Below the pieces are notes generated by a model that worked only from the letters and a program-made list of their open reading frames with translations, ran no database searches and was not told the DNA's origin. The position numbers and the translations under genes were made by a program. This document shows, piece after piece, positions 5,796-53,566 of a DNA stretch of 55,004 nt. How positions within the stretch are numbered: position 1 is the stretch's first letter; every line of letters starts with the position of its first letter. The stretch is from Cyanophora paradoxa CCMP329 (lineage: Eukaryota > Plantae > Glaucophyta), in assembly GCA_004431415.1 (NCBI GenBank), contig QPMI01000285.1, forward strand, positions 1 to 55,004. Direction: 5' to 3'.

Positions 5796-6803
5796 ATGCC
5801 TGTGGATTACATCGAGGTTAGCTCATTTAATACAATCTCTGGTGATGGTCCCACATCAAGCTTTGTGGCTAGACTCCCCAGTACTTATGAGAATGTGAGG
5901 GCTGTGAGACTGGTCTCAGCCGAATTTTATAACAGCATCCCTATGGTGAGTGGTGAAACCAAAGCAGGAGATATAACAGTTGACAACACTTTTAGTATTT
6001 ATTATTCTGAAGAGCTTGCGGGAGCTGGAATTACAGGAATTCCAACAACTCGCCCAGCTGCTGATTTTGAACAATGGAAACAATTCATTGTAAATCGCGA
6101 AACCCCCATTCAAAACCACCAACAGCTGGTGAATGTTATAAATGAAAAGTTTAATGACAGAAATCCTAAACCATCTGTTCGCTGCAAATGGGATGAGTCA
6201 CTGAAACGAATTATATTCCATTCCGAAAAAAGTTTTACCTGGCTTTCTCACTTGCTGTAGACCCAAACCTGAAAACAATCCAAAAGCTGTTAAGCTCAGC
6301 TCGACTTTTTGGTCTTGATCCTGGAAGATATGGTAATTCCCCAATCAAATCACAGGTCTATGATGCTCTCACTGATGGAATCTTTACTGGAACTCGAGTA
6401 AACGGTATTATATCTTCATTTGAGCCTGAAATGACCAGGGACAGTGTTTTGTTTGTGAGAGTAAAGGAGCTGGGTGATCTGGTGCAATGTGGGATGGTCT
6501 CCTGACTGGTTACTTCCATAAAATAGTGGTCCCTGACAAAGATTATGGTGAGCATGTAGTTTACAATTCGACAGAGGCTCATCCACTTTACAAATACTAT
6601 AATAGAAGGTTGGATTATCCACTTTCTCGGTTGATATTGTGAATGCTGTTAATGAACCAATTGATTTCGAGGGTCAACCTGTTCATCTTACCTTTGAAAT
6701 TCGCTATGGTGATGAGCCAGCTGGGGACCCAGTTTATGAATACTATAAGATGAGAATGTCGCAGCTTCACCCTTCCTATCCAGTTATTACAAACTTCGCA
6801 TAA
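5796..6803 (+). CDS. Minor capsid protein (penton) 2, frameshifted
   Basis: N-term SSFVARLPSTYENVRAVRLVSAEFYNS; C-term in shifted frame LSTFSVDIVNAVNEPIDFEGQPVHLTFEI, stop 6801-6803. Directly upstream of MCP. Confidence 0.8.
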
Positions 6804-6855
6804 ATTAAGGATCATTGGTAGATTTTTATGTTGCAGTATAATAAAAGAGAATATA

Positions 6856-8224
6856 ATGGATATCACTTCCACTCTTCAAAGACTTTCGCTGAAAGAAGCC
6901 CTAACAACCCCAGAGGAGGCGAAAGCCTTTTTCCTGGATAACTCCCTTATGCTTGGTCTCGAATCCAAGTCTAAGCCAGTTCTAGTTGTTGTGAATCCTA
7001 GTAATACTTTCACAAATAATGTAGGAAATCGCATTTCCTTCAAGCTACCTCGCTACAATTTCTGTGGAAAACTCGAACTTGCTTTTGACCTTCCAGCTAT
7101 CACTTTTGCTGGTGATACTGATCTAGTTCGCAATGGATACACTCGCCCAGTTGGTGCTTTAGTTCAGCGACTTGAAATTACCTATGGATCTTACACCTAC
7201 CATATTCCATCTGATTTCCTTGCTCATTTCCCCCTGGTCTATTATTCGGAGGATCAACTAGCTAAAAAGAAACGATCAATGGGCATGGTTCATGGCATCC
7301 CTGCTCATGGAACCAACCGACTTGGTGGCTCATTTTTCGTTGAAATTCCAGTGCCTTGGCTAAATCACTACCTTCCCCTTGGTGCTTTATCTGGTGAAAT
7401 GGTTGTTACTGTTTGGTTTAAGGATGTTGGAAAAGGCTATGTTGAAACATCCTATGGTGGTCGTGGTCTTACTGTTGCAGCAGCTGATGTAGATTATTCA
7501 AAAGATGATGGTCTTGGAACTGCCCCTGCTGAAACTGTTCTGGCAAATGTTGGTCAAAACATCACAGACTTTACTCTTGGTGCAACAACTCCTGAAATTT
7601 CAATTACTTCTCCTCGCTTTATATGCATGCTATTAATGTTTCTGATGAGCTTTTCGCTACTGTAATTGAAAAGTTAAGACTACTGGCATGGCTATTCCCT
7701 CCCTTGATATTGGATTTGTTGATGCTATTGCTTTCCCTGCTAAGGGCAATGCCCAACCCAATCGAATTAACCTCTCTCAAATCTCAGGTCTTGTATATGC
7801 TCTGCTTGTTTCAGTTCGTGATAATGCAACTGTTGACAAATCCAATGGCTCCCACAGTGTTCTTAAGACCTATGCCAACTCCAAAGACATAACATTTACA
7901 ACTGAAATAAATGGTCAGCGACTTTTTGCCACTGAGCCAATTTCCCTACTCAAAGGTGCTGAGCTAATTGCTGATGCCTTCAAATGCTCTAACATGGATA
8001 AGGTTGCTGATCGCTATGTCCTTTCAGGATTGCCTTTCTGCCTTGATGGAGAAAAGGCGATTCGAAATATTGCCCAGTCTGGTTATGTTGATTTAACAAA
8101 TTCCTCCTCTTCATTCCTCACCCTCTACATGCCTTCAGATAAGGTAATCGATGTTAATGTTCGCGCTCTCATGCATAGCTTTATTATTGTCGACAAAGAT
8201 GGTTTACGCAGAATTAATTTATAG
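6856..8224 (+). CDS. Major capsid protein (double jelly-roll), one frameshift near 7620
   Basis: SFKLPR..LELAFDLP..GALVQRLEITYG..FVEIPVPW..YLPLGAL..VVTVWF resembles the DJR MCP N-terminal barrel. ~455 aa combined; sits between penton and ATPase. Confidence 0.82.
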
Positions 8225-10352: not shown

Positions 10353-10504
10353 GATAATTGAGAAAAAGCGGTCTCAGTATGCCACTGAGGCAGCTATAAA
10401 AGTTTACAGACAGGAACTGGTGTTCGCAACAAAAAATGACTTAAGGAAAAAGTAGATAGATTGTATTGAGGAAAAATTATTTTCGTATCTACTATTAAAG
10501 AGAA

Positions 10505-10831
10505 ATGCCAAATATCCGCAAGATACTCACAGATGATGAAAAAGCAGAGAAGCTGAGACTGAAAAGGGAGCAAGATGCCCAAAGAAAACGCGAAGCCTAT
10601 CATAAAAAGAAGCAGGAACGATTATCCCAAGGAGCCGCTACAGTTCACACACCAGAAGAACTCAAAAAGATTGCCCTCAGACACCAGTGGAAATACAGGG
10701 AAAATGAAGAATATCGCGAGCAAAAAAAGGCAAAAGCGCTGGAATATTACCACAAGAAGAAAGATGAACAGCCCAAGAAACCCAAAGAGCATAAACCGGT
10801 TGGAAGACCTCGGAAATATATCGAAGAATAA
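10505..10831 (+). CDS. Small basic protein with AT-hook-like motif (paralogue of 10107-10352)
   Basis: KYRENEEYREQKKAKAL..YY..KPVGRPRKY. Confidence 0.7.
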   Translation: MPNIRKILTDDEKAEKLRLKREQDAQRKREAYHKKKQERLSQGAATVHTPEELKKIALRHQWKYRENEEYREQKKAKALEYYHKKKDEQPKKPKEHKPVGRPRKYIEE

Positions 10832-11047
10832 ATTCTCGATCGAAACAAATTTTGTAGAAATCGATTTGATCGGAGGCAAAAAAATGACAGCTTTCTTCCC
10901 TCTTTTTTAAAACTGTACCTATATATCGAGACAGTATCCCGACCCAAAACTACTTAAGGACTTGGCAAATAATAGGATATATATAAAGACAATTCCTCCT
11001 TCCGAAATTATTTTCTTCGTTAAAGGTAGAAGTCCCCAAAATCGAAA

Positions 11048-13636
11048 ATGAACAAATCGAGAAATTCGCCACCCCTGTTGAAAATGCTACATTCCTTAGT
11101 ACTCTCATTGGTGATCGCAACAAGGTCACCCATGTATTTGATTCTGCCGAAGATGCCCTTGAAGCCATTGATAATAGCAAGGTTAAGACCTGGGCTGAAT
11201 GCATTCAACCTGAGCAAGTGACCAGAGTTTACCTGGACCTGGATAAATTCGCTGATTTGAAGGAGAACATTGCTGATAACTATGCTGAGGCGGAAACTGT
11301 TGTAAGAGAGATGAGAGATAAGCTATGGAAGCGATCTGGTACCACTTCTATTAACGATATTGCTGTTGCAGTTCGCCATAGAAGGGTTTATTTGATTAAG
11401 GAGGATGTCACCAAGTTCAAGATTTCAGCCCACTTTATTATTAAATCGCTTGCATGCAAACATGAAGATATCCCCAAGCTTTTCAAAGCGATGGATTGGT
11501 GAAAAATGAGGATTATGACAGTGGAGTTTACAGCTCCACACAGAACCTAATCTGCCTCAATTGCTGCAAAGGTGAGACTCTGGATGCTCAAAATAAGTCG
11601 AAAAAAGATGTTGATAAAAACGTTTGCTTTAAGAAATTCGTTGACTGTGACAAAGTGTTAATGCGAAATGAGGACTTCTTTGTATCTTACTTCTCAGCTA
11701 CTACTAAACTTGTGGATGAATCAAATATTTCTGCATTTGCAAATTATACTCCTGAGCCAAAACCAGTTAAAAAGGAGCCAAAAAGTGATAAAGTGAAGAC
11801 TGAGAAGGTAGAAGCTGAAAAAGACACTGAACCCGAAAATCCTGTTACTTTCGAACTGCTACAAAGTGTTATAATGGGTCTGAATGGTGAGAGAGCTAAT
11901 GAGTATAAAACTTGGATTGATGTAGGACTGGTCATCATCAATGTTGGGGACGACAACAAATTTACCCCTAAAATGCAGGCTGAACTCTTCCACCAATTCT
12001 CAGAACAGAGTGACAAGTATGATTATGATGAATGCCAGGAGAAGTTTACACAGCTTCGCAGAAGCAAGAAGAAGGCTGAGCCTGGCAAAGTGTTGACCTT
12101 CAAATCCTTGGTTTATTGGTTGAGCAAAGATAACAATGAGCTTTTCAAGGAACTCTTCCCCAAAAAGTATGCATTCCTACCAGAGGACACAGATGAAATC
12201 GATTACAAGACTGCAAGTATCCCTCCTTTGGCTGAACATTACAATGTGCATAAGAGGTATTTCAATGCTCGAATGCATCATGTTGAAAATGTTGGTTGTG
12301 TGATGCTCTGGGATGAACAACTACTTTGCTGGATGCCCAAAGATATTGGGAAGCTCTCTACAAAGCATTTCCCCCATTTGATGCATAAGGTGATTGTCAA
12401 TGAGGGAACAGATAATGAGAAAGAGAAATGGAGCAATCATTTAGGAAATGGATTGTGGATCCAACAGCCACAAGATCAACTTACATGGATTTCCTTCCCC
12501 TCCTGCTACTCTCAGTGCAAAATGCAAGTCTGTATTTAATCTCTATCCAGGAATGAAGGTCGACCATCAGCAATTCGAAAATGCTCCAGAGGATGTAACT
12601 GCTGAGATGATTAAGCCTTTCCTTGATCACTTGTTCTTAATGTCTGGTGAGGATCAAAATACCTATGAATATCTGTTGAAATGGTTTGCCCACATGCTGC
12701 AAAAGCCTGGGGAACTCAATGGAGTATCCTTAATCTTCATTGGTGAACAGGGAACTGGTAAGAATGTGTTGGTTGATACTTTCCAAAAGAAGATACTTGG
12801 AGATGCCCTGAGTTATGCAACTGGTAAGCCAAAAGAGGATCTGTTTGGTCGATTTGCCCATAACAGAGAGGATAAGATCCTGATTGTTGTCAATGAAGCC
12901 TCAGGCAAGGACACATTCGAAAATAATGATATGCTCAAAGATCTCATAACTTCTGATAAGATTGTAATTGAACACAAAGGATAGATTCATACACAAAAAG
13001 CAACTTTGCCAGGATTATATTCACCAGCAATAACAACATTCCAGTAAAAATTGAAGCTGGAGATAGGCGATTTGTGGTTGTTGAAGTTAGTAAGAAATTC
13101 GCAAAGGATAGGTCATACTTCCTTCCACTTGTAAAATGGCTAAATGATCACTGCAATATTCGAAACATTGCCCACTATTTGAGAACCAAAGTTGACTGTG
13201 AGGATGTGAACTGGATTGCTGATAGACCCCTTACAAATAAATACTATTTAGCCCAGCAGGTATGCGCCCAATCATTCTTATGTTCACTAAGTGGCTTGTG
13301 GATCGAGGCTTAATTTCCGAGAATAAATGCAAGTCTGGTAGCCTTGTGGAAACCTGGAAATGGTTCCAGGAGTTTATTACCAGCAACAAATATAAAAACG
13401 ATTATAATAGTCGCAGATATTATACAGAAATGCGAAGTGTTACATATATCCAAGTGAAAACTACAAATGGCAAACAATACTATCATTTCTTGTTCCCACA
13501 AGTATTTGAGGAATTCAGAAAGATGAAGCTTGTAGATGATGAGACCATTGAGGAAGAAGCTAATCCAAGGATGAAACAAGAACTACCTGCTGCTGATCCT
13601 GATGCATCAGATTATGACTCTGATGTTGAAGTTTAG
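11048..13636 (+). CDS. AEP primase-PriCT-2-SF3 (D5-like) helicase, frameshifted; start approximate
   Basis: AEP motifs RVYLDLD, KISAH, DSGVY; PriCT-2-like YKTWIDVG..FSEQSDKY..LVYW; Walker A GEQGTGKN, Walker B IVVNE, motif C FTSN, DRRF. Confidence 0.88.
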
Positions 13637-13645
13637 GTTTACTCA

Positions 13646-13828
13646 AAAGTGGACTCACAGTTGACTCAAATTTATCATAAAAGACCCAAACAGTCTTTTA
13701 TTTATGGTTTATTTATCGATTAGGTTGACTAAGTGGGGGGAGTTGACTCATTTTTTCACAGATTCTAAAAGAGGACTCTGCCCTAAAAAGAAATAAAAAG
13801 TGCCTCAACTCCACCCACTAAGTCAACC
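13646..13828. repeat. Iteron-like GTTGACT/GTGGACT array with inverted pair (candidate origin)
   Basis: AAAGTGGACTCAcaGTTGACTCA (13646), GGTTGACTAAGTGGGGGGAGTTGACTCA (13723-13750), inverted TCAACTCCACCCACTAAGTCAACC (13805-13828). Same layout at 19857-20046. Confidence 0.75.
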
Positions 13829-13879
13829 AAAAAATGATTTAAGAGATAGAAAAATATATTTATATGTAACTAGTAAGAA

Positions 13880-14230
13880 ATGGCTGGAACAGATCATGAT
13901 TCTGGATCGATCTATATGATTGAGAGTCAGGAAATGAACAAAGTCTACATAGGAAGAACCTCACAGCCACTTCAAAAAAGATGGAGACAACACAAATCAG
14001 GTCAAATGCCATCTACAGCAGACCTATGCAAGGCTTCTGATGTGAAGTTCTCAGTCCTGTATTCAAGTAAGAAGGGTGGGCATGAAGACCTAATGAACAG
14101 AGAAGCATATTACATGTATCTCTTTGAACCTTGGATAGTCAATTTACAAAAACCGAAATCCCGATTTAGGATTAATAGGTTTTTGCGATTCCATTCAGAG
14201 GAAGCCAGTGGATCCATTAAAACATTTTAA
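13880..14230 (+). CDS. GIY-YIG endonuclease
   Basis: GSIYMI..VYIGRT..KRWRQH..RE..N motif order. Confidence 0.9.
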   Translation: MAGTDHDSGSIYMIESQEMNKVYIGRTSQPLQKRWRQHKSGQMPSTADLCKASDVKFSVLYSSKKGGHEDLMNREAYYMYLFEPWIVNLQKPKSRFRINRFLRFHSEEASGSIKTF

Positions 14231-14289
14231 ATTGCGTTTAGAACATCCTAAAATAAAATATCCCTTAGAATAGGAACAAGTTAGGAATA

Positions 14290-17200
14290 ATGCCCCGAAT
14301 TACCAACAAACTCATAAGGGAGAAGAAATGGGAACTCATGGGATTGCTGGGAACACTTTATGCAGCCCATGAAATTACAGAGGCTGAATATGACCGGGAA
14401 ATAGATTTAATTGCAAAGGGCAGACCCACTTTAAGCAGATTAACCAGAAAAGCAAATAACCTATATGATAAAATTGAAACCTTGGATGAATTGGATAGGC
14501 TTAGGCAAATAGAACCAGAGGCAGAAGATGGAACAGCCATGAATGAATTATATCGCTGGCTCACTTACAGAGCCAGAAGGGAAGTTGTTGTAGATGTGAT
14601 TGAATTCCTGGACAGAATTGCTACATCCCTTCCAAATCGATTAAAGCAGGGGTTAGATCAATTCAGGGCAATCAAGGTTCGCTTGTCTTTTATCTGCAAG
14701 TTCGTTAAAGTGAGCAATCCACAGGTTTGGATATCGAAATACATTTACAGTGATTACTTTGTATTAACCAGGTCGAGAAATATTCGAACTGAGCTGAATA
14801 AAGCAGCCCAAATGTGTCAGGAGCAGATGAATGTGGTTGATAGCTATCGCTTAGAAAGAATTGAAATACTCAGAGTGGCTATTATGAGTTATGCTCCAAC
14901 TGGTGGATGCTTTCTACAAACCCCAGAGTGGATTGCTAGGAAGAGAGCCACAGTAAATATTCGAAATATTGATGATTCCTGCTTCGAAAATGCAATTTTG
15001 GCATATATTCACAGAAAAGCGATAAACTCCCATAAGAGGAATGAGCTTTCACAATATCGCAAATGGAAATACTCAGCAATCGCTTATAATCCGCTGGCTC
15101 TCAATTTCGATAACATCCCATTCCCTGTTGCCTGTGATGCTGATATTATTGATAAATTCGAGGCTCAAAATGCAGGCATTAGCATTAATATATTTGGAAT
15201 CGATGGAGAGGTTATTTATCCCCTGCATCAATCAAGTAACCCAGGCAGAAAGCATAAGGTTAATCTCATGCTGATATTTGATGATGAAGGGAATGGTCAC
15301 TATATTACAATCATGTCCCTTTCAAGGCTATTGAAAGTAAACCATGAAACATACAATGATCAGAAGTTACACTACTGTGACACATGCTTATCTCGATTCA
15401 GGTCTGAGGCTAAACTCACTGCTCATGTGGACTCAAACAGATGCATTGATTGGAGACTCTCAAAGGGAATCACACCAAAACCTGAGACCACCATAGAGTT
15501 TGGACTGAAAAACCTCAGGAAAACTGTTTGGCTTCCTGTTGTGGTTTACTGCAAGATTGAACATAGAAGCATCCCCATAGATGCATCGAAATCCAAGAGG
15601 GAAGTCTCAGCAGTCAACATTAGAATAGTCACTGGGGCAGATGTTCAAGATTTTCGATTTGAGGGTCAGGATCCAATGGGAGGTCTGTTTGAATGCTTGG
15701 AATCCAAAGCAAGAGAGCTAATTGACTTCCTGTTTACCAATATTCCCATGAATGAACTCACAGATGAGCAAAAGGCTGTTTACAGGGCTACTAAACACTG
15801 TTACCTTTGCAGTGAGAGGTTCACCAAGGAGAACTTCAAATGCAGGGATCATGATCACCACACAGGTCATTATATTGCTCCTGCATGCAGAACCTGCAAT
15901 CTACATAGGAGAATCTCAAAGCAAACAAAAGTAGCAGTGGTTGTTGACCAAATGGATGACTGTGGGACATTCATTTTCAGAAAAATAGCAGGCATGGGTG
16001 ATAAAAAGCGAATCGAAATCCTTTCGAAAAACTTTGATCAATACCTTTCATTGCAATGGGGTCTTTACAAGTTCATTGATGCAAGTAATTTCATGGATTT
16101 TGGAGCTGCTGATGTAGATGAGTTAATGAACAAATTCCAAGCCTTCAGAAGGCTTTCACACTCAGTATATGGACTTGACCCAGTTCATTATGTATCTGCA
16201 CCTGGGTTATCTTGGGATGCTATGCTTAGGACCACCAAGGCAAAAATAGAGCTTATAAGTGATGTAGAGCAATACGAATTTGTTGAGAGGGGAATCAGGG
16301 GTGGCTTTGCAACAATGCCTTGTAGGTATGCTGAGGCTGATGGTGAGAACTCCCATATAATGCTGTTTGATGCTAACAACTTGTATGGCTACTGTTTGAG
16401 TCAGCCAATTCCAGTTGGTGATTTTAGATGGGAGACCGAATTCAACCCACAAGATAACAGATCCAGTTTCCTGGAAGTTGATCTGGATTACCCAATTAGG
16501 CTATATCTAGACCACAGTGATTTCCCCCTAATTATTAACAAGAAAATAGTAGAGTATGCAGAATTATCACAATATCAAAAGAGCCTATTAGATATTTCAG
16601 GAGAAGAGCTTGATAAAACCCCTAAGCTAACTGCAACCTTTGGTTCTGTGACAAACTATGTGATTTCTGAGCCTCTTCTGCAATATCTGTTGGACAAAGG
16701 GGTGAAATTAAAGAAAGTTCACAGGGTCCTATCATTTACTGTGGCTCCTGTAATGAAACCCTATATTGAGCTGAATACTGACATGAGAAGGAAAGCAGTG
16801 AATAAATTCGAGGCTGATTTCTACAAGCTCATGAATAATTCAATCTATGGGAAATGCATTGAATCTTGCAGAGGTAGATCTGTGGTTAAGATTGCAAACA
16901 GTGAGAAACTATTTATGAAATATGCAGCCTCCCCATTGGTGAAATCAACAAGCCCCATAAACGAAAAAGCAGTTGCCTTTGAGTTTTACACAAAGCATGT
17001 GAAACTAGATAAGCCTGTTGCAATTGGGGCTTATGTTTTGGATGCAGCCAAACTGCATAATTACCAGTTCTTCTATGATACTGTAAGGTCCCAATGGACA
17101 AAAGCAAAGTTACTATTCCATGATACTGACTCCTTCTGTCTATATATTGAATCTAAGACCATTGCAAAAGATATAGAGAATATATCTTATGCATTAGACC

Positions 17201-17535
17201 TTGGAGGTGATTCCAGAATGACCCCAGGTAAATACAAAAATGAAATGCCAGGTTCTGCAATCCTGGAGTATGTAGGTCTGAGAGCCAAGGTTTACAGTTT
17301 CAGAACAGCTGAGATTGAGAGAAGTAAGCTCTCTGGGACTTCCACTGAGGAACTCCAATTTAATGATTTTAAGCAGTGTTTATTTGCAGGTATAAGCAAG
17401 ACTGTGACTGCCAAGCAAAAGAGAAGGGCAGATCACACAATAGTAGACACTGTGAGTAGAAGGGTTGCCCTGAACTGCTTTGATGCAAAGAGATACATCT
17501 TACCAGATGGTATTAATTCTGTTCCTTTTAATTAA
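14290..17535 (+). CDS. Protein-primed family B DNA polymerase (Polinton type) with degenerate exonuclease
   Basis: Pol motifs FDANNLYG, KLMNNSIYGK, HDTDS, GLRAKVY; vOTU-like DDSCF..GHY; endonuclease-VII-like Zn finger CYLC..RDHDHHTG..CRTCN. Confidence 0.95.
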   Translation: MPRITNKLIREKKWELMGLLGTLYAAHEITEAEYDREIDLIAKGRPTLSRLTRKANNLYDKIETLDELDRLRQIEPEAEDGTAMNELYRWLTYRARREVVVDVIEFLDRIATSLPNRLKQGLDQFRAIKVRLSFICKFVKVSNPQVWISKYIYSDYFVLTRSRNIRTELNKAAQMCQEQMNVVDSYRLERIEILRVAIMSYAPTGGCFLQTPEWIARKRATVNIRNIDDSCFENAILAYIHRKAINSHKRNELSQYRKWKYSAIAYNPLALNFDNIPFPVACDADIIDKFEAQNAGISINIFGIDGEVIYPLHQSSNPGRKHKVNLMLIFDDEGNGHYITIMSLSRLLKVNHETYNDQKLHYCDTCLSRFRSEAKLTAHVDSNRCIDWRLSKGITPKPETTIEFGLKNLRKTVWLPVVVYCKIEHRSIPIDASKSKREVSAVNIRIVTGADVQDFRFEGQDPMGGLFECLESKARELIDFLFTNIPMNELTDEQKAVYRATKHCYLCSERFTKENFKCRDHDHHTGHYIAPACRTCNLHRRISKQTKVAVVVDQMDDCGTFIFRKIAGMGDKKRIEILSKNFDQYLSLQWGLYKFIDASNFMDFGAADVDELMNKFQAFRRLSHSVYGLDPVHYVSAPGLSWDAMLRTTKAKIELISDVEQYEFVERGIRGGFATMPCRYAEADGENSHIMLFDANNLYGYCLSQPIPVGDFRWETEFNPQDNRSSFLEVDLDYPIRLYLDHSDFPLIINKKIVEYAELSQYQKSLLDISGEELDKTPKLTATFGSVTNYVISEPLLQYLLDKGVKLKKVHRVLSFTVAPVMKPYIELNTDMRRKAVNKFEADFYKLMNNSIYGKCIESCRGRSVVKIANSEKLFMKYAASPLVKSTSPINEKAVAFEFYTKHVKLDKPVAIGAYVLDAAKLHNYQFFYDTVRSQWTKAKLLFHDTDSFCLYIESKTIAKDIENISYALDLGGDSRMTPGKYKNEMPGSAILEYVGLRAKVYSFRTAEIERSKLSGTSTEELQFNDFKQCLFAGISKTVTAKQKRRADHTIVDTVSRRVALNCFDAKRYILPDGINSVPFN

Positions 17536-17538
17536 GAG

Positions 17539-18924
17539 ATGCCAGCAACTGGAAGAATAGTTAGGAGAACCACTGACCAACTGCAAGGGAACCTACTGCC
17601 CATCACAATTCCAAAGGAGGAAAAGGGGGAATCTCGAATTGTTAAAAAGTCTGAAATGAAAGAGCTTGTCCCAGTAGAGATCCCAGTTGCTATTGCAGTG
17701 AAAGAAACCAGCAAGATTGCCAAGAGATTCTATGATGTGAGAACTGGTTACAAAGGGCTTCAAGCTATGAGGGCTGAGTTACCAGATGAATCCTATAAGC
17801 AGTTGCAAGAGTTCTATAAAAAACAAGAGGTAGTTCAGATCAATGCACCTGCTATATCTAGAAAGAGAGATCCCATGGTCCCAATCAGGCAACCCCTTGA
17901 TACCTATGTGATTGATTTGCTCTTTTTCCCAGCTTATAAGAAACAAAACAATGGCTATGACACCTTCATGACTGCAATGGAATCCACACTGAGAACTGGG
18001 TATATTATACCTATAAGGGATAAATCAGCTCTCACTACATTGGCTGCATTTAAACAGCTTGAAATGAGAGTGGCAAGACCAATAGTAAAGGTTCAATCAG
18101 ATGCTGGGAGTGAATTCCAAAATCGAATATTCCAGGAGTATTTATCTGGTAAATACATAGAACACCAAGTGAGTGGAACTGCTGACCACAGAAGCCAAGG
18201 TAGAATTGAAGCCTTTAACAAACAGATTAAGAGACTGATCACAAACTACTGCATAGCCAATAACACAGCTAGATTCTTTGATGTGTTAGGTGATATTGAG
18301 TATAATTACAATAATACAGTCCACTCAGCTACTAAGATGAAGCCAGGCGAAACTACAGAGAAGCATTATAGGTATATAGTGGGATTAGAAGATGAAAGAT
18401 TCAAGAAATCAATAGCTTACCTTGATACCATGCAGCCTGGCATGTTTGTGAGAGTGAAAGTTGAGAAAAACCCCTTTGCTAAACAGGGTAACAATTGGTC
18501 TAGGATGGTTTACACTGTTGATAGTAGGGAAGGCTTTAAGTTTAAGCTAAGGAGTCCCACTGGTGAGATCATAGATAACAGGTTTGCTTTCCATGAGCTG
18601 TTGCCTGTGAATGCAGTTGAGTACCTGGAAACCCCTACAGTTGATGCCTTGGAGCAAGCTAAAGAGGAAGCCAGGGTTGATGCTGCTATAAGGAGAGAAG
18701 GCATAGAGGCTGCTAATGAGGTCCCAGATAAGCCTTTGATAGAGGCTAGGAAGGAGAAGGCTGGGAAAGTTAGCAGGGAACTCAAAAAGCTCACCATAGC
18801 AGGCACACAGAAACTTTCAGAAGTGAATAGCCAGAGGTGGTATAATGACTTTCAGACTACTAAGGAGTCATATACAGCCCCTAAACCTCAAAGAACACTA
18901 AGAGAAAGGACCAAAACTAGCTAG
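17539..18924 (+). CDS. Retroviral-like (rve, DDE) integrase of Polinton type
   Basis: YVID, QSDAGSEF, GRIEAFN, YNNTVHSATKMKP, NWS..VYTV; no C-terminal chromodomain recognised. Confidence 0.95.
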   Translation: MPATGRIVRRTTDQLQGNLLPITIPKEEKGESRIVKKSEMKELVPVEIPVAIAVKETSKIAKRFYDVRTGYKGLQAMRAELPDESYKQLQEFYKKQEVVQINAPAISRKRDPMVPIRQPLDTYVIDLLFFPAYKKQNNGYDTFMTAMESTLRTGYIIPIRDKSALTTLAAFKQLEMRVARPIVKVQSDAGSEFQNRIFQEYLSGKYIEHQVSGTADHRSQGRIEAFNKQIKRLITNYCIANNTARFFDVLGDIEYNYNNTVHSATKMKPGETTEKHYRYIVGLEDERFKKSIAYLDTMQPGMFVRVKVEKNPFAKQGNNWSRMVYTVDSREGFKFKLRSPTGEIIDNRFAFHELLPVNAVEYLETPTVDALEQAKEEARVDAAIRREGIEAANEVPDKPLIEARKEKAGKVSRELKKLTIAGTQKLSEVNSQRWYNDFQTTKESYTAPKPQRTLRERTKTS

Positions 18925-19152
18925 TTTGCTAGGCGAAAACTCGTTTTTTCCAAATATATGTATGTGTCATATACATAAATGCCCACGATATACACATAGT
19001 CTTGTAGAGCTTATCAAGCGCTTCACAGCGATATGCAGAACGTTGCGTTTTGATGATCTGGTGATGAGATATAACAGTTTGAAGATGCAAAAGTCACTTG
19101 CCATAGTAGACTTGGTGAAACACTAGCCCAGGAGTCGACTTGGTGGTAAGCC

Positions 19153-19223
19153 GTTTTTGGCTCAGAGAATAGAGCGCTTGATTTCTGACTCAAAACTACG
19201 CGGTTCAAATCCGCTCGGGAACC
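19153..19223 (+). ncRNA. tRNA-like element (degenerate; anticodon TCT or CTG)
   Basis: D-stem GCTC/GAGC (19160-63/19172-75); anticodon stem TTGA/TCAA around TTTCTGAC; T-arm GCGG-TTCAAAT-CCGC (19200-19214) with perfect B-box; acceptor GTTTTTG/CGGGAAC with three G-U pairs. Confidence 0.6.
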
Positions 19224-19822
19224 TTTACTTCGTTCGCCGTGAAACTTGAAAAGTAAAAAAAAAGCGGTTTTTTCTAGATTAATGCTGTACCCGTCTAGAA
19301 AATCAATATTAACGTTTGCTACGATATCTCAACACCAACTTATCAAATCGATGCGCTTAAAACGTCATAAAATCGAGCATTTCAAGGCGGTCACAGCGCT
19401 TATGAGCCATCTCGGAATTTCACTAACTGTAACTCCAAATCGCGATGAAACCGATTTTGAATTTCGATTTTAAATTCGATTAAAATCCATTAAACGTGAG
19501 TTTTTAATATAGATCACTAGGAAGTTATCAAATCGATGCACTGACGGTCGAATATAATCCCATATATCATACATAACAATAACTTGCAATCACATATACG
19601 AATCTCAATGTGTATAGATCGCTATTACGATTAAAGCGAGTTTTGAAATTCAAAATTAATTCGATTAAATTCGATTATAACTCAAAAATCGCGATTTATA
19701 ACCATATACTTATCGTTTCGATCAACTTATGATATCGAATATTCAACTATATTATATTGCTTCGATAACTGTGATCCCATCTATGATCCCATCAATCTAA
19801 CACTGCATTTAGTAAGCATCTG

Positions 19823-19978
19823 CCCTAGATTCCCCCTATTATATAATATTTATATTAAAGTGGACTCAAGGTTGACTCATATTAATCGTAAAAGTAGTAA
19901 TAGTATATGGATTTTGTTACGAATTCAATGCAAGGGTTGACTAAGTGGGTTGAGTTGACTCAAATTTCACAGGAAATA
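19823..19978. repeat. 156-bp sub-terminal block, exact inverted copy of 44306-44461
   Basis: Base-by-base reverse-complement match; contains GTTGACT iterons. Confidence 0.95.
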
Positions 19979-20571
19979 TTTGGGACCTAAAGTTTTCTAA
20001 AAAGGATTTGAAAAAATGTGTCAACTCCCCCCACTTAGTCAACCCTGACCATAAACAGTAAGGATTTGAGCTAACATGTATCACAAAGTGAACATTTTGA
20101 GTCCACTTAGAAGATCCACTTTTGAAATCAAAGTTGATTTTGCTTGAAATTTCAAAGTTGATCTAAAAGTGAGTCCACCCTGATTGATTATGGTAACAAA
20201 GTTGACTAAGTTGACTAAGTTGAGTCATCTTAAGAAATTCAAGGAGACTAAGAGTTCAAAATGTTTATGAAAAGTGAGTCAACTTAGACCACTTATGGTA
20301 ACAAACTTAAATATTTAATTGATTTAATCGGAAAAGAACATGATTTAATCGAATTTATTGATATAATTCCGATTAGATTCATTTAGGATTCAATTAAGAT
20401 CAATCGAAGTTATAGATATAATTCCGATTAACTACAATTAAGATACAATATCGATTAATCGAGTTTATCGATATAAAATCGATTAAATTAATTGAAAATG
20501 CATTTAAAAATATGAAAATTCATGTGAAAATTCAAATAAATTAATCGATTTTATTGATATAACATCGAATC

Positions 20572-20644
20572 ACACATATGAATATTCATATTTTAATCCT
20601 GAGGCGGAACGCCGAGGGATTAAAATATGAATATTCATATGTGT
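20572..20644. repeat. Terminal fold-back of copy A: perfect 28-bp arms, 17-nt loop
   Basis: ACACATATGAATATTCATATTTTAATCC (20572-20599) / GGATTAAAATATGAATATTCATATGTGT (20617-20644). Confidence 0.97.
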
Positions 20645-23600
20645 AGCCTTGGGAGGGTGGAAGGCGATACCCGTATTGAACTGCAAGAGATGCTGGAGGG
20701 CCCGGCTCGTGATCTCATTCCGCTTGTTCTCCGTGAGGCGCCGCCGCTGAGTTTGCGACAGCTGCTCGTCCTTCTTGCCGGATTCGCGCAATCGTTTGCC
20801 GGTGCCCACCAAGAGAGGCCGCTGCGTCACGCGAAGCTCCTCCTCCGCCGTGAAGTACGGATCCGTGCCCAGAGAGCGCGCCACGATGTCCTCCCAGCTG
20901 AGTCCCGTTCGCAAGTATTGCGGGAGTTTGTGCGGTCCGACTCTCCCACGGTAATCGGTACCCTGAAGGAGCTCTGCGATCGCCGTCGAGATGGGCATGT
21001 ACTCGTTCGGGAGTCGCGGCAGGAGGTGGCGGATCGGAGTGTCCGGGGAATCGCGGTCCCAACAGAGGTATACGCCGAGGTGCACATGGGCGTCTCGAAG
21101 GTACGCGCGAAGAACAGAGAGAAGCGTGAGCGGATGCTCGAGGCCAGGGATTGCGAGGATGCGGTTCGCCATCGCCGTAGCCATCCGTTCGGCGACGAGG
21201 TGGCCCTCCGGCGTCGACGCCTCCTGGTACCGCGTCGCCAGCGCAACGCGGAGCGCAACAGCGAGCACGCGAGCCCGAGGCTGCGAAGCTGCCAGAAGTG
21301 CGGCCTCGTTGCGCGTGATGAGGATTTCACTGTGAGGTTCGTAGCTGAGTGGGATCGGGTCGGTAGCCGGGAGGCGCTTGAGCTTCATCGTAGGCGGTTG
21401 GGCCTGGCCGAACCCCTCACTGGTGAACGCGTCGCGAACGTAGTTGATGATGGCGTGCGTGTACGCAGTCTGGTCACGGATACTATTCATGCGCGCCATA
21501 GCGACGGTCGGGCTAAGTTCCGTGACGAAGGCAGTGCCCGTCGGTGAGGACCCCTTGCGATGCTGCTCCAAACCCGCCTCGCACGCCTTTAGTGCCGCGT
21601 CTGCGTTCGTCGGGACAGAAGAGCGATGACCGGGGTTCGGGATAGAGATGGCGATAGACGAGTACGTGAGCTCAAATTCCCGCGTGAGGTCGCGAAGGAA
21701 GCAGGACGTGAGGCGGCCGCCTCGGTGGCTGTCAAGAACTAGACGGCCAAAATGTGTTGTCCAGGACATCAGGTCCGGAGTGAGCCGCGCCGTATCCGTC
21801 GTGAGGTTCAGTGCCCGAAGCATGTACTCAGACTGTTCGATGATCACGCTGAAGGTGTAGGCCCGCGGGATTGCATCGTTCTCGACCAGAAGCGGTTGCG
21901 GTTCGCAGAAGGTCGTGCGGAGAGAGGCGTCATCTGTGGCACTGACGACGCTTGCCAGCAGCGTGCCCTGAGCGAGTGCCCTGGCCCGGAGATGGACAGA
22001 GACGCGAGGTATCAGCGCAGCCGTGTGCCGTAGCTTCGAGTCGACGTAATCGATGAGGACTTGCCCTTCTTCTGCCTCCAGCGCGGGAGGGAGCCTGTGC
22101 AATTCTCGAAGAGACTGGTGGAACAGTCGAACGCGTACAGCATGCGTGTCGCCTTGCGCCGTGACTGCGCGCAGCGTGGAGTGGTGGTGCAGCGGTGAGG
22201 TCGTGGCCCCCTCGCCTTTGCGAGCGTCCAGCGCCGTCTTGTAGGCCCGGGCCGTGTCGATCACTGAGGAAAGGATCGCGGTAGCCACCGAGTCCGTCGT
22301 GTAGCTTGCGATGCTCGCGTCGGTTGCGCTGAGGCCGAGGAACTCAAGGAAGGGAACCGACGAAGTCAGGTCACGTAGAGTCACGAGCTCCGCCGGGGTG
22401 CTGTCGTAGGCCAGACAGGCGACAAGGTAGACTGCTGAGCGGAAGCGGGGAATGTGATGCAGCAACTGTGCGGCCTGCGCCTCGCGAGTGACCTTGTACG
22501 TGAGCGGGATCGGGCGCTTCTCGTCCTTGAAACGGGCCATGTCATCGTCGTTCAGCGGCGCCTGCCGATCCGACGTGCAAGGTTGTTCTGGAACACGCCC
22601 GTGTTTGCGATGCCCACCGCGTCATAAGAGGCGGGGCACCACGCGACGGGCGCTCGTCCGAGTACAGGTCTGCGTTGTCCAGCGCCGTCGTCATGAGCAT
22701 GTACGATTGCTCGCCTGGCCAGTAGATCGCGCAGCCTGGGGCAAGGGAGAATGTGTGGGCGGGATCTCGCGAACGTCGGGAGGCGGGTGAAGTCTGCCGT
22801 GCTCGTCGGGTGCGATGTGAAGCCGCGCGCAGAGCTCCTTGCTGAACGACGTGTCCGTGTCCTCAGCCTCCTCCGGGGCCGTCGGCGTCGTGGTCGAGGT
22901 CCCGCGGTCGGCGTCATGACTGTCGGCGCCGTCGGCATCGCGGCCGAGGGTGCGACAGCGGACGTTGTCACCGACGGGCTGGAGTCATAGCCGGCGCCTT
23001 CGGCTGCACGGCCGAGGCGTGGGGGATACGTCGCGGGCTTCGGAGTTGCGACTGCAACCTGTACCGTCGGCGGCGCGGCCGAGGGTGCGGTGGGCAGCTG
23101 GTCCGAAGGCATCGTCCCGCGCGGGCGCGCGGACGGTGGGCGCCACGAGCCGCCTGCAGCCGGGATGGCATCGTCCAAGCCGTCGCTTGCAGGGCGGGTT
23201 AACGAGACAGCAGCCGAGCCCGTCGGCGTTCCAGCTGGCTCGTCGTGGTCACTTGGCGACTCCTCGTCGCGGTCCTGGGCGCGCCGGCGGTACTCCTCGT
23301 TCCTCCGCCGCTGGTCCGTCTCCTCGTCCGCCGTGCGGAGGGCGGTGAGCTGCATGAGCGTCATGATGCGCTCGTTCGCATGCGGCACGATGTCGTCGAA
23401 GAACGGGAGAGGATCATCGTTGGCGAACTGAATGATCGCCCGCTCCACCTCCAGCTCCGACAGTTTGAAGGCCGTGCACACTCGTTCGCGGTGCGCCGGC
23501 GCCATCAGCAGAAGTACGCGAAGGAGGACGTGGGGAGGGTAGTCTTCCATGTAGCCCGTGCCCAGTGCGGGGAGGGACTGAGGGTTCCAGATCCACTGGA

Positions 23601-26600
23601 GATTGTCAAGGTTCGGAGGCTGTACCGGGTCCGTTCGAGTGAACGGTCCCATGACGTCGCACTGCCCCACCTGAGTCCACGGTACAGCCGAGATGTCCGT
23701 TCCGTACGCCGGCTGAATGTGAGAGTAGGCCGCGGGCGACCCAGCATCCAGCCTGGCAGAGCGAAGGAGCCCGTACTCGTCGCCCGGCCTGACGGACTTG
23801 GTCCAGCTCGTCGGCGCGGCGGGTCCGTGACCACGAACGTGGACGTGTCGGAGAGGGGGATGTTGATGTACTCGTCGGCAAGAGAAGGGAAGACCGCCTC
23901 GCGTAGACCGGCGAGCTGGGGGGCGTAGACAGCGAGGTTGCAGTAGATGCAATGAAGCAGGTCGCACATGGCCGGAGGAACCTGGCGGCAGAAGGGCGGT
24001 TCTGTCCGTGACACCGTCGTCTGGAGCGGGAGGCGAGCCGTGTACGTCGCGCCCGTGTCATTGTCGACTCCTCTGCCGCTGGTCATCAGGGAGGAGAAGG
24101 TGCCCGGGAAAGCGCCGCAGACGCCGCAGCCAGAAATCAGCTCCCAGCAGGTGCCCACGATGGTGCCCTGGGCGTCATGAAGCAGGCACGGGTAAATGAC
24201 GACGACGTGGTACGAGTGAGTGTGCTTGATCGGCAGTCCCCCGCGTGCGTTTGGCGTGTAGGGGGCCGGGCAAGGGACGGGGCTGCGAAGCTCGTGCGGA
24301 GCGAAGCGAAGGTAGAAAGCCCGCGTTCCCGGAGAGAAGCACAAGTCCAGCGGCGTCATCTTGTTGAAGATCTCGTCGCCGCCGTGCGCGTTGTAGAGGA
24401 CGGACCCCGCAGCACGAAAGCGGGCGCGAAGCGTCGCCGCCGCCAACTGGAAGAGCTGCTCCAGCTCCCGTGCGTTTGACTGAGCGAGGCAAGCGCGGAT
24501 GGTGTTGCGGAACGTCGCCATCGTCGAGTCGGAGAGCGCGGGCGGGGGCGCCGGCGTCGAGGGCATCGTGGCCAGCGTTGTTGCGATCGGCGGGTTCGCA
24601 GAAGTCGGGGTCAACGCCGTACCAAGCACCTCTAGGGGCGGCCAGGGTTCCGTGAGGTGCGGCGGCCCCGCGGGACGCTGATTCGTCGTCGCCGTCGTTG
24701 GCACCGCAGCATTCGGCGGGTCCGATCGCGTCGGAGCCGCGGCAGCGGGGAAGGCGGGGGGGATGTAGATGGGGATGGGGCTGAGGCCGAACTCGCGCGA
24801 GAGAGCAGCGGGATCCAGCGCCGGCAGGTGAGCGAAGGAGGGCGTGCCCGTAAGGTGCATTGCGACCCCCAGAGCAAGCTTCGGGCGGGGCGGCTTCTCA
24901 GTCTTCAGGTACGCAATGATGTCGTGCACCACCGAGGACCAGCTGTCGAAGCGGATGTCGCCCCTGCGGCGGAGCTGCAGGGTGTACAGGTCTGCGTACG
25001 TCTGGGCAAACGCGCTCTGCGTGCACGCCGGAAACGCCATCTCGTCGGACGGGGCGTCGGTCGAGGTCCGAGTCGCGTGTGGGGCTGACGACGTCGACGG
25101 CTGCGTGGCCGTGGACGAAGACAGCTGCACGGGCGGTGTAGGCTGCGCGTGTGACGACGGCTGCGCGGCCGTGGTCGCAGTCGGGCGGGAGGGCGTCGAC
25201 GAAGACGACGGAGTCCCCGAGGTCTTGGAGCTCGAGGCGTGGGCCAGGTGCCAGTTGGTGTGCGGACGCTGCCGAACGCCCTCGCGGAGTACCGCGTCCT
25301 GCTGCTCCTTCGTCGCCGTACCATCCACGACGGCCGCGAAAGCCTTCTGGTAAGCCCTGCGGGTTGCCTTGCCGTCGGGGAGGTCCGGGCCGGCCGCCAT
25401 CAGGACCGTGTAGTACGGGTGACTAGCAGCGCCTTGCGTGCGAAGCGGTACAGTCGGGTTCCTGTTGCTTGCCGGCGGCAGCGGGCGCGGCACTTTGCCG
25501 AGGTCGCCCGGTGCGCGAGCAGTCACAGTGATGGGGCCCGCGACGAAGAGGAAGTAGGGGCGGTGCTCCGGAGTGTTAGGAGGCGCAGTGAGAGGAAGGC
25601 GGGAGAGCTCGTCCAGCATGAAGCGGTGAGCCGTCTGGAGGTACGCCGGCGGTTCGTGAAGCCGCGCTCGCACAACGTGCAACTCCACCGGTTCCAACGG
25701 CCCCGAGCCCCTCCGCTTGGCCGGGAACTGCTCGCAGTGAGGGCAAAACTCCTTCAAATACGGGGCCGAGCTCTTGACGGAGGAGCTGTCCGTGCGGAGG
25801 TCGACCGCATACAAGTCCGTCACGTCGTCCTGCGCCTGCATGAAGCAGGGGCGGAAGTTGTGGTGCGGCTTGATGAAGTACGACGAAGTCTCGCCGGCGA
25901 CTCGCGAGTCGTAAGTGTAACCGCGCGGCCGCTTGCCGGCTTGCCGCGAGCAGAGGGCGGGTCCCCTGGGAGCAGCGATCGCCAACGTCTTGCCCTGCAC
26001 AGGAACGATGAGGAGGGCCTCGAACGTAACCGTGCGGAAGTCGCCTCCCGGGAAGCCCGTCGGTAGTGAGCAGAGCTGACGACGTCGGCACGGTAGTTGA
26101 TATTGTCCTGCCGCTTGGCGTGTGCAGCGTAGGCGAGGAGCTCGAGGTACGGGCGCGCAACGTCCTCCGCGCCGGGAACGGGTGCTCCGTACACTTGGAG
26201 CGCCGGCGTAATGTGGTCGCGGTCGACGTTAGACGGCGCAGGCTCCGGCGTGAGAGGGCCGGCCGTCGGAGCGGTCGAAGAAGCCGGCGCGCCGCTTGCA
26301 TTGCTGGAAGTAGCGGGCTGCTGGGTGCAGACGTCGAGCCCATGACCATCGCCTGCGTTGCAGCAAGCACCGCGCGCGCCTCGCGCTCGATGTTGAGGGC
26401 GGAGCGGGACGGGGAGGGGAGCGGCCGCCGGTAGTGACGTTGACGGGGCAGACGCGGACCGCCGCAACGTTGGAGCCGTGGGTGCCCAGGGCACGCTCCG
26501 CCGCCCAATGAGCCTGCTCCTGGATCCGGACCTGCGCCGCCTTGAGCCGTGCTTTCACCTCGAGTGCAAGCTCCTTGGACGTCTTGAGGCCGGGAGTCGT

Positions 26601-43382: not shown

Positions 43383-43666
43383 ACACATAGTAAAATGCGG
43401 AGTTTTAACCCTCGGCTTAATCTTAATTGATTTTGTTGATATATCTCGTATATTCTATTTCAATCAATCGATAATCTGTGTATATCTTATCGAATATTCA
43501 ATTATTTCGATTATTTTGTATTCTTTTCGATATTTTATCGTAAATTTCTCTTATTTTCCGATTAGTCTTACTGAGTTAATCGATAATCTGTATATATTTC
43601 CGAATAATATAACTGAATCTCAATTAGATCTTGCCTCTGGTTAAAACTCCGCATTTTACTATGTGT
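43383..43666. repeat. Terminal fold-back of copy B: perfect 28-bp arms, 228-nt spacer
   Basis: ACACATAGTAAAATGCGGAGTTTTAACC (43383-43410) / GGTTAAAACTCCGCATTTTACTATGTGT (43639-43666). Confidence 0.97.
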
Positions 43667-43908
43667 GATTGGTCTTTTTGTTAATTGATTTAATCGATAT
43701 TATATTCATGTACTTTCTCGATTAAATTTAATTAAATTTAATTCATTTAATCGGAAATATATCGCTAAACTCGATTAAGATCCATAAATGATTCATTTGT
43801 TAAATAAAACAAATCGATCTCTTATTGAATCCAATCGTAATTATACATGAAACTTATATGATTTTATCATTGTTTTGTTGAGTCTAAGGGGGGACCCTTA
43901 GGTTTTTT

Positions 43909-44253
43909 GAAATAATTGGGTGTGACAGGTGTGACAGGTCTATCCAAAACTTTTGATAGTTCATTTTTAGGTTATTGAAAAGTTTGGGATAGACCTGTCA
44001 CACCTGTCACACAAACCATTTTCAGTAAGATCCTCTTTTATAATGAAAAACTCAGTAACAATATGAAAGAAGTTTATCTATGTAATTCTACTTAAATAAA
44101 CAAATGAAATAATCGAGTGTGACAGGTGTGACAGGTCCATCCCAAACTTTTGAGAGTTCATTTTAGTGCTATAGAAAACTTTGGGATAGACCTGTCACAC
44201 CTGTCACACAAACCATATTCAGTAAGGACCTCATATATTGTGAAAATCTCAGT
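43909..44253. repeat. Two direct copies (197-bp period) of a 35-bp-arm inverted repeat built from TGTGACAGG 9-mers
   Basis: 43920-43954/43978-44012 and 44117-44151/44175-44209. Confidence 0.93.
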
Positions 44254-44305
44254 GTTAGTTGGTGTAGTTGATTCAAAAAATGCATTTTATACTCTGATTC
44301 ATTGT

Positions 44306-44461
44306 TATTTCCTGTGAAATTTGAGTCAACTCAACCCACTTAGTCAACCCTTGCATTGAATTCGTAACAAAATCCATATACTATTACTACTTTTACGATT
44401 AATATGAGTCAACCTTGAGTCCACTTTAATATAAATATTATATAATAGGGGGAATCTAGGG
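44306..44461. repeat. 156-bp sub-terminal block, exact inverted copy of 19823-19978
   Basis: Direct reverse-complement comparison. Confidence 0.95.
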
Positions 44462-44609
44462 GAATGTTGAGTTTTAGTGTAAGGAAATCGAACATTATTC
44501 TAATTATTTGACATTGCTTAATGTAGGGTGCATTCACATTATGGCTTCATCATACAGTAGAATTCTATCGTAAAAAACGTCCGGAATCCGGAAAATAATC
44601 ATTGTAGAA

Positions 44610-44656
44610 AGCTACTGTAGTAAAAGGATATATTATGTCCTTTTGTAACAGTAGCT
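44610..44656. terminator. Imperfect hairpin downstream of the leftward gene block (possible 3'-end signal)
   Basis: AGCTACTGT..AAAAGGA..TCCTTTT..ACAGTAGCT, ~60 nt past the stop at 44715. Confidence 0.4.
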
Positions 44657-44714
44657 GATCAATGTTATTGTTAGATACCAAAGGAATCCTTTCAAAACTC
44701 ATTATAGAAACCCA

Positions 44715-45113: not shown

Positions 45114-45142
45114 TAAGAATACCTAAGAAAAATTAATTAAAC

Positions 45143-45415: not shown

Positions 45416-45437
45416 ACTCTATATATAACCAATATTC

Positions 45438-46271: not shown

Positions 46272-46294
46272 TTTACATTAAAGGGATATATCTT

Positions 46295-47149: not shown

Positions 47150-47188
47150 TGCTTCTTTTACTAAGAAGTAAAGAAAAATAAACTGCAA

Positions 47189-47494: not shown

Positions 47495-47497
47495 TTA

Positions 47498-53525: not shown

Positions 53526-53566
53526 GGCTTTACTATATGGATTTATAAAATCCTGATAAGTAAAAG

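What the first reader, a model, noticed from the sequence alone, without database searches (positions are those of the whole stretch)
13646..20290. Iteron-like origin behind the primase-helicase gene is repeated near the terminus
Seen: the layout AAAGTGGACTCA-nn-GTTGACTCA, then GGTTGACTAAGTGGG-nn-GAGTTGACTCA, then the inverted TCAACTCC-n-CCCACTWAGTCAACC occurs at 13646-13828 and 19857-20046. Spacing is conserved (77 vs 78 bp; 106 vs 110 bp) while the spacers are largely diverged. More GTTGACT(AA) units lie at ~20200-20290. Known: phage P4 alpha and SaPI Rep primase/helicase systems bind direct and inverted iterons, one cluster lying just downstream of the gene. Inference: the PLV has an iteron-driven replicon as well as protein-primed ends, i.e. 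two initiation systems.
Basis: partly seen in the sequence, partly recalled or inferred. Interest (0 to 1): 0.75.

Follow-up and report, generated by a model that had tools for sequence, protein, structure and literature searches.

The report
Iteron cassettes in polinton-like virus ends
A small DNA virus inserted in a protist genome carries a mirror-image set of short repeats right behind its primase-helicase gene and again near its ends; related viruses show the same layout with their own repeat words, so these are likely the sites where that enzyme binds to start copying, which nobody has tested.

Summary
Observation confirmed: the cassette sits at 13637-13828, directly after the stop codon of an AEP-PriCT2-SF3 primase-helicase, and at 19857-20044. 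Its repeats and spacing are kept while the spacers are near random identity. A third, inverted copy (44267-44427) lies in the left end of a sibling element, beside two cassettes with a different word. The helicase tail folds as a winged helix. In 27 of 52 non-redundant homologous loci, direct plus inverted arrays follow the helicase stop, against 5 of 306 other genes. The word changes with lineage, but not demonstrably with the winged helix alone. Four pPolB-integrase relatives without this helicase have no cassette. Best reading: SaPI/NrS-1-like loading sites for the element's own helicase, copied into its terminal repeat region. 'Two initiation systems' is not shown: the pPolB lacks its exonuclease motifs and the element ends in a hairpin, so one coupled system or a replicase swap in progress fits as well. 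Binding is untested. My searches found no such origin in print; this scan noted the helicase-adjacent layout before on other DNA. The end copies and the second word are what this window adds.

The parts
10987..13636 (+). AEP-PriCT2-SF3 primase-helicase gene, read in five overlapping frames in this assembly; true start likely a little upstream
   Evidence: PriCT_2 E 1.7e-9 and DUF5906 E 1.1e-12; AEP-type motifs at 11230, 11422, 11514, Walker A 12742, Walker B 12886 (motif labels recalled); short-read contigs carry single extra bases at the breaks listed, so those are likely assembly errors (12 of 24 indel rows shown)
13241..13633 (+). C-terminal winged-helix domain of the helicase, predicted recognition helix at about 13406
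   Evidence: AlphaFold2 mean pLDDT 78.5, helix-helix-helix-hairpin order; VIA-align top rows SarX Z 8.3 (rmsd 2.4, 84 aligned) and Cdc6/ORC winged helices Z 8.1-7.0; Foldseek no hit at E<=0.001
13637..13828 (+). Cassette A: three lead-in units (13637, 13649, 13660), forward 9-bp triad (13724-13750), 53-bp spacer of 68% A+T, inverted triad (13801-13827)
   Evidence: starts at the base after the TAG stop
13880..14230 (+). GIY-YIG endonuclease gene, 52 bases after cassette A
   Evidence: Pfam GIY-YIG E 1e-10
14290..17535 (+). pPolB with intact polymerase motifs but no exonuclease motifs and a 104-residue in-frame gap
   Evidence: DNA_pol_B_2 E 2.9e-13; alignment with four relatives
17539..18924 (+). 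rve (DDE) integrase gene
   Evidence: rve E 9e-4, under the curated cut-off; tblastn to four relatives E 7e-35 to 3e-14
19823..19978 (.). 156-bp block shared at 100% with the sibling's left end; likely the inner edge of the terminal inverted repeat
   Evidence: several different sequences join at 19790-19854 and contig depth steps up here (depth is no copy number)
19857..20044 (+). Cassette B: two lead-in units, forward triad (19936-19962), 58-bp spacer of 72% A+T, inverted triad (20017-20043)
   Evidence: 0 of 100 shuffles as good
20098..20283 (.). Further units: inverted 20098, 20170, forward triad 20201/20210/20219, inverted 20275
20572..20644 (.). Terminal palindrome at the element's right end, 35-bp arms
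   Evidence: z -12.2; host contigs start at 20645
43920..44012 (.). Cassette D1 in the sibling's left end, different word (GTGTGACAG twice plus a third partial unit, then the mirror image)
   Evidence: 0 of 100 shuffles as good for 43901-44300
44117..44209 (.). Cassette D2, tandem copy of D1 (149 bp at 87%)
44267..44427 (-). Cassette C: inverted copy of B in the sibling's left end; lead-in and forward triad identical to B, mirror triad decayed to one good unit
   Evidence: this form also stands in an independent run (X18)

Best explanation
The repeats are likely binding and loading sites (iterons) for the element's own primase-helicase: its predicted winged-helix tail would read the 9-bp units, and helicase rings would load on the two facing triads and open the A+T-rich centre. 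Shown: layout, position directly behind the gene, three copies, conserved units with drifted spacers. Predicted: the winged-helix fold. Inferred: binding, melting and priming, by analogy with SaPI Rep/PriRep. The copies 600-900 bases from the ends lie in what is likely the terminal inverted repeat and would let the same enzyme load near both ends. Weaker inference (about 0.35): it unwinds there for the pPolB, which has lost its exonuclease motifs, so the two enzymes would form one coupled system rather than two independent ones.
For: Winged helix. 27 of 52 non-redundant homologues have arrays of at least 3 copies on each strand within 400 bases behind the stop, against 5 of 306 other ORFs, 4 of 103 other ORFs with long non-coding tails, 1 of 33 upstream regions and 9 of 520 shuffles (Fisher p 2e-21 and 6e-12). 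Geometry agrees: the 12 best-scoring relatives have period 9 and gaps of 57-79 bases, the window 56 and 58. Words differ by lineage. Four pPolB-integrase relatives without the helicase have no array in the 14-15 kb held. A and B keep units and spacing while spacers drift. The second word, GTGTGACAG twice, gives 34 hits in viral contigs, 22 distinct, 15 with arrays on both strands; of 10 neighbouring large ORFs scanned, 9 hit primase or helicase families. SaPI origins have this layout and are bound by the C-terminal winged helix (PMC9371898, passages).
Against: No binding data. 25 of 52 homologues fail the cut-off (30 of 52 pass a looser filter), and copy A itself scores under it. Word distance follows the helicase core (rho 0.68) as well as the winged helix (0.69); partial correlations 0.49 and 0.45 do not separate recognition from shared descent, and rows are related. 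L047 shares its word with L034/L035 but not their recognition helix or clade. A second cassette is rare in relatives: 2 of 16 positive loci of 8 kb or more, none by the k-mer scan. No sampled relative holds both pPolB and this helicase (0 of 12), so the end copies have no comparative test. The left end of element 1 and the helicase of element 2 lie outside the window, and no genome is held.
Confidence: 0.65

Rival explanations
1. Replicase turnover: cassette plus primase-helicase form a semi-independent replicon, and the copies are scars or handles of module exchange. A and B are direct repeats that bracket GIY-YIG, pPolB and integrase (about 6.2 kb); A and the left-end copy would bracket the rest as inverted repeats. 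The helicase may still bind them, but the end copies would not be needed for replication.
For: L079 holds GIY-YIG plus helicase between two inverted 290-bp cassette copies; L076 has a second direct copy 8.5 kb away. The sibling's end has a half-decayed cassette of the first word beside two of another word. Helicase contigs are shallower than pPolB contigs (weak). Barth 2024 (PMC11296320 section 9) and Barth 2026 (10.64898/2026.10.13.758929) describe repeats bracketing replicase modules.
Against: A and B share only the units, not the spacers, which points to selection on both copies rather than a fresh duplication. B and C are 100% identical over 156 bases while the element bodies are 94.5% identical.
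Confidence: 0.17
2. Host transcription-factor sites: the core TGACTCA is the AP-1/GCN4 bZIP site and TTGACT the WRKY W-box (both recalled), so the arrays would be enhancers or promoters.
For: 8 exact TGACTCA/TGAGTCA sites lie in the cassettes against 3 in the rest of the elements and 3 in the host stretch. Cassette A lies 52 bases before the GIY-YIG start.
Against: Relatives hold the same layout with words that lack this core. B lies 933 bases after the integrase stop with no element gene behind it, and C lies past the 3' end of the nearest gene. Several conserved units (GTTGACTAA, GTGGACTCA, GTGGG) do not match the site.
Confidence: 0.08
3. A small non-autonomous repeat (MITE-like), a cruciform, or a substrate of the integrase or GIY-YIG nuclease rather than an origin.
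For: The triads form 35-37-bp inverted repeats that fold well as single strands (z -6.3 and -7.9). GIY-YIG genes lie in 7 of 12 helicase loci scanned. The block is deep in short-read contigs.
Against: No target-site duplication seen; spacers are not homologous beyond chance; lead-in units lie outside the inverted arms; integrase-bearing relatives lack the array; the position at the helicase stop is general.
Confidence: 0.1

Closest known systems
SaPI/PICI replication module: Rep or fused PriRep5 plus ori (PMC9371898, passages read; PMC7581432, passages read)
   Same: SF3 helicase with primase and C-terminal winged helix; repeats directly behind the gene; opposed arrays around an A+T-rich centre.
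   Different: Eukaryotic virus with pPolB and integrase; 9-bp phased triads rather than 5-6-bp iterons; extra copies near the ends; binding untested.
NrS-1 phage primase-polymerase-helicase (PDB 6k9c/6k9e/6lrb, titled 'Primase'; NrS-1 label recalled)
   Same: Only solved structures hit by the homologue profile (E 1e-34); NrS-1 is named the closest structural homologue of PriRep5 (PMC9371898).
   Different: Origin recognition by NrS-1's C-terminal domain had not been addressed according to that paper; phage, no pPolB.
PLV/virophage end modules and replicase turnover (Barth 2024, PMC11296320, passages, section 9 part 1 and a supplement search; Barth 2026 preprint 10.64898/2026.10.13.758929, parts 1-4 of 5)
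   Same: Proposes inverted repeats as origin for the PLV primase-helicase; Gezel-14T has a direct repeat in its TIR and behind the end module; genomes with two replicases and bracketing repeats.
   Different: No iterons or winged helix named ('iteron' 0 in both texts searched); no word-level match to the helicase lineage.
Halocafeteria endogenous virophages/PLVs (10.64898/2026.07.28.741278, passages read)
   Same: Elements with pPolB plus D5 primase-helicase, read as transient replacement states; terminal palindromes proposed as hairpin primers.
   Different: No internal repeat cassettes described in the passages seen; palindromes there go mainly with non-pPolB elements.
Phage P4 alpha with ori and crr (recalled, not read)
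   Same: Primase-helicase with winged helix; two separate iteron clusters.
   Different: DnaG-type primase in P4, AEP type here; other word; both clusters here have the full mirror layout.

Membership tests
SaPI/PICI Rep-ori module | SF3 helicase with primase, C-terminal winged helix | tested here: met
SaPI/PICI Rep-ori module | Iterons immediately downstream of the rep ORF | tested here: met
   first unit at the base after the stop; 27 of 52 homologues alike
SaPI/PICI Rep-ori module | At least two iterons on each side of a central A+T-rich region, in opposite directions | tested here: met
   triads around spacers of 68% and 72% A+T; element average about 60%
SaPI/PICI Rep-ori module | Six to twelve penta- or hexanucleotide iterons | tested here: inconclusive
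   about 9 units in A, but with 9-bp period and degenerate middle units
SaPI/PICI Rep-ori module | Specific ori binding and melting by the protein | not testable with these tools
   needs EMSA or footprinting
SaPI/PICI Rep-ori module | Bacterial phage satellite island | tested here: not met
   element with A32 ATPase, pPolB and rve integrase in an intron-rich, GC-rich eukaryotic contig; works like a SaPI origin, is not a SaPI
Polinton-type protein-primed replicon | pPolB plus rve integrase | tested here: met
Polinton-type protein-primed replicon | pPolB with 3'-5' exonuclease motifs | tested here: not met
   Exo I, II, III motifs of 4 of 4 relatives are absent; 104-residue gap (motif names recalled)
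Polinton-type protein-primed replicon | Terminal inverted repeats | tested here: inconclusive
   element 1's left end is outside the window; 156-bp inverted match to the sibling's left end and a depth step at about 19820
Polinton-type protein-primed replicon | Terminal-protein priming at the ends | not testable with these tools
   both ends start ACACATA-like, which would suit slide-back priming; the right end is also a hairpin
Polinton-like virus | Double jelly-roll major capsid protein and A32 ATPase | tested here: inconclusive
   Pox_A32 E 1.3e-5; the capsid candidate 6754-8221 has no Pfam hit and was not folded; the PLV label rests on gene order and recall
MITE | Homologous internal sequence and target-site duplication | tested here: not met
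   A/B spacers at chance identity; no duplication seen

The most novel reading that the evidence does not exclude
A hybrid replisome in a eukaryotic integrating virus: an iteron-reading primase-helicase loads at cassettes built into both terminal repeats and unwinds for a pPolB that has discarded its proofreading domain, and sibling elements swap lock-and-key pairs (helicase tail plus repeat word), leaving the old cassette decaying beside new ones, as seen at 43920-44427.
Probability: 0.25. Interest if true: 0.75.

Novelty: new variant of a known kind. Interest (0 to 1): 0.5.

Why it matters
How polinton-like viruses with primase-helicases start replication is open; published work only guesses at the inverted repeats. 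This gives exact 9-bp sites, a 100-residue domain predicted to read them, and a comparative set of about 30 word/protein pairs for binding tests. The end copies and the second word make replicase turnover testable within one host genome. The mechanism is known from bacterial satellites, and this scan saw the helicase-adjacent layout before, which caps the surprise.

Tried and rejected
No whole genome is held, so other copies could not be read. The Atlas does not hold the helicase tail. The search for related loci with the window helicase piece found nothing; with the 111-row alignment it could not run. The exact 15-mer of the triad gave 15 viral-contig hits, none in a related element or with a mirror array, so the word is private to this family. 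Foldseek gave no significant match; no P4, SaPI or D5 winged helix was among the 50 VIA rows, which excludes nothing. No RNA holder was listed; run X18 is only guessed to be RNA and was not used for expression. Covariation specific to the recognition helix was sought and not separated from descent. An origin-directed nuclease carrying a copy of the helicase tail (lead from e1-5488233) does not fit: the GIY-YIG is 116 residues with about 30 after the domain. The sliding scan also flagged 6001-6300 and 49201-49600, both inside ORFs, taken as chance. Literature searches for iteron origins in PLVs, virophages or giant viruses listed none that describes one; only top rows were seen (12 of 105). PMC4974454 (passages) ties strand displacement to TPR2 and a tunnel; the passages seen do not state that exonuclease loss removes it, so that step is recalled. 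Figures and supplements of the two bioRxiv preprints could not be seen and may annotate such arrays ('small repeat array').
Full report
Setting. The window holds two low-GC elements (about 40% GC; 1-20644 and 43382-55004) around a host stretch of 51-82% GC in most bins, with short introns, thiamine-phosphate synthase and amidase genes. Earlier scan notes name the host as a glaucophyte alga (not tested here). Element 1 carries an A32 ATPase, an AEP-PriCT2-SF3 primase-helicase, a GIY-YIG nuclease, pPolB and an rve integrase. Element 2 begins at 43382 in the same orientation and is 94.5% identical to element 1 over 3.5 kb, so it shows the family's left end. Short-read contigs show the family is multi-copy and carry extra bases at the listed frameshifts of the helicase gene.

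Observation. All stated blocks and spacings are right. GTTGACT occurs 21 times against 5 expected. The unit is a 9-mer, GTTGACTCA with variants. Cassette A begins at the base after the helicase stop and has three lead-in units, a forward triad, a 53-bp spacer and a mirror triad. Cassette B repeats this 600 bases from the right end and is followed by six more units. Between A and B the units and distances are kept, the spacers are at or near chance identity. A third copy, C, lies inverted 885 bases from element 2's left end; 156 bases are identical to B, and the mirror triad has decayed. Next to C lie two cassettes of the same build with another word. Contig depth steps up at about 19820 and several different sequences join there, which fits the inner edge of a terminal inverted repeat; depth is no copy number, and element 1's left end is not in the window.

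The protein. The last 131 residues, folded with 10 homologues, give three helices, a beta hairpin and a closing helix (pLDDT 78.5). The best structural matches are winged helices: SarX Z 8.3, Cdc6/ORC Z 8.1-7.0; such Z values show the fold, not the function. A profile of 111 homologues hits only PDB 6k9c/6k9e/6lrb.

Relatives. 55 were dropped for missing stop, under 400 bases downstream or odd length; 91 collapsed to 52 below 90% identity. 27 of 52 have at least 3 copies of an 8-mer on each strand in the 400 bases behind the stop, against 5 of 306 other ORFs, 4 of 103 with long non-coding tails, 1 of 33 upstream regions and 9 of 520 shuffles. The best cases are 9-bp triads facing each other across 57-79 bases, as in the window (56, 58). 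Copy A itself scores 2, under that cut-off; B scores 6. Words differ by clade, for example ATGTATAGT, GTGGAGGGT, GTTACAGAA. Over 30 loci passing a looser filter, word distance follows winged-helix distance (rho 0.69) and helicase-core distance (0.68) alike; partial values 0.49 and 0.45. So word and enzyme travel together, but recognition by the tail is not isolated. Of 12 long loci scanned (125 of 134 ORFs; 7 helicases and 2 overlapping ORFs left out), 9 have an A32 ATPase, 7 a GIY-YIG, 2 a tyrosine recombinase and none a pPolB.

Controls on the other enzymes. Four relatives found by the pPolB also hold the integrase, show no hit to the helicase and have no array in the DNA held (25 of their 46 ORFs scanned in Pfam). 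The cassette therefore goes with the helicase, on a small sample.

Second copies elsewhere. 2 of 16 positive loci of 8 kb or more have one: L079 (two inverted 290-bp copies around GIY-YIG plus helicase) and L076 (a direct copy 8.5 kb on). The k-mer scan found no second cluster in 30 loci and missed L079 altogether. Duplication is uncommon, and no relative tests the pPolB-plus-helicase case.

The second word. GTGTGACAG twice gives 34 viral-contig hits, 22 distinct, 15 with arrays on both strands; 9 of 10 adjacent large ORFs hit primase or helicase families, two with the same PriCT2 plus DUF5906 build (two of the ten are near-duplicates). So element 2's end likely carries sites for a second helicase type, whose gene is not in the window.

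The pPolB and the ends. The ORF is intact and keeps the polymerase motifs, but the Exo I, II and III motifs of 4 of 4 relatives are gone, with a 104-residue gap. The right end is a 73-base palindrome (z -12). Both ends open with ACACATA-like letters. Protein priming is possible but not shown.

Mechanism. Most likely (0.65) the helicase's winged helix binds the units, rings load on the facing triads and melt the centre, as shown for SaPI Rep and PriRep (PMC9371898; PMC7581432). The end copies would load the enzyme near both termini; whether it then serves the pPolB (about 0.35) or runs its own replicon is open. Rivals: relics or handles of replicase exchange (0.17; PMC11296320; preprint 10.64898/2026.10.13.758929), a MITE, cruciform or nuclease substrate (0.10), host bZIP or WRKY sites (0.08).

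Novelty. It works like a SaPI origin and is not one. Five literature searches listed no description of iteron origins in PLVs; Barth 2024 proposed the inverted repeats as origin and noted a repeat shared by the Gezel-14T TIR and its interior. Verdict: real, new variant of a known kind, interest 0.5.

Noticed in passing
window 14290-17535: Intact pPolB ORF without exonuclease motifs and with a 104-residue in-frame gap against four relatives; a proofreading-deficient viral polymerase candidate. No displayed contig bridges the gap position.
   Followed up: partly
window 20572-20644: Terminal palindrome with 35-bp arms and a small inner stem; element 2's left end has a different, wider inverted repeat (43382-43423 / 43626-43667).
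   Followed up: partly
window 20344-20589 and 43420-43830: A+T-rich 55-bp repeats full of ATCGAT-like words in the outer part of both ends, 78-83% alike between ends; a third repeat system of unknown reader.
   Followed up: no
window 19324-19727: Three degenerate units at 185-bp spacing between the integrase and cassette B.
   Followed up: no
window 44718-45122 (-): S-adenosylmethionine decarboxylase gene as the first gene inside element 2's left end (Pfam E 4e-11).
   Followed up: no
window 41622-43427 (+): Element 2 is inserted into a host endonuclease/exonuclease/phosphatase ORF, likely a LINE-type retroelement; element 1 also abuts retroelement-like ORFs (20573-27873).
   Followed up: no
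L079:5833-9814: GIY-YIG plus primase-helicase genes between two inverted 290-bp iteron cassettes inside a tyrosine-recombinase element; looks like a mobile replicon unit.
   Followed up: partly
L076:9141-9287 and 17700-17845: Second direct copy of the post-helicase cassette 8.5 kb downstream.
   Followed up: partly
runs X9 and X4, window 20183 to 19858 joint: A variant in the same organism where a 20091-20183-like segment precedes a 19858-19963-like segment with 65 letters between: another cassette arrangement.
   Followed up: no
window 10499-10828 (+): Small basic protein just upstream of the primase-helicase, no Pfam hit; a possible DNA-binding partner.
   Followed up: no
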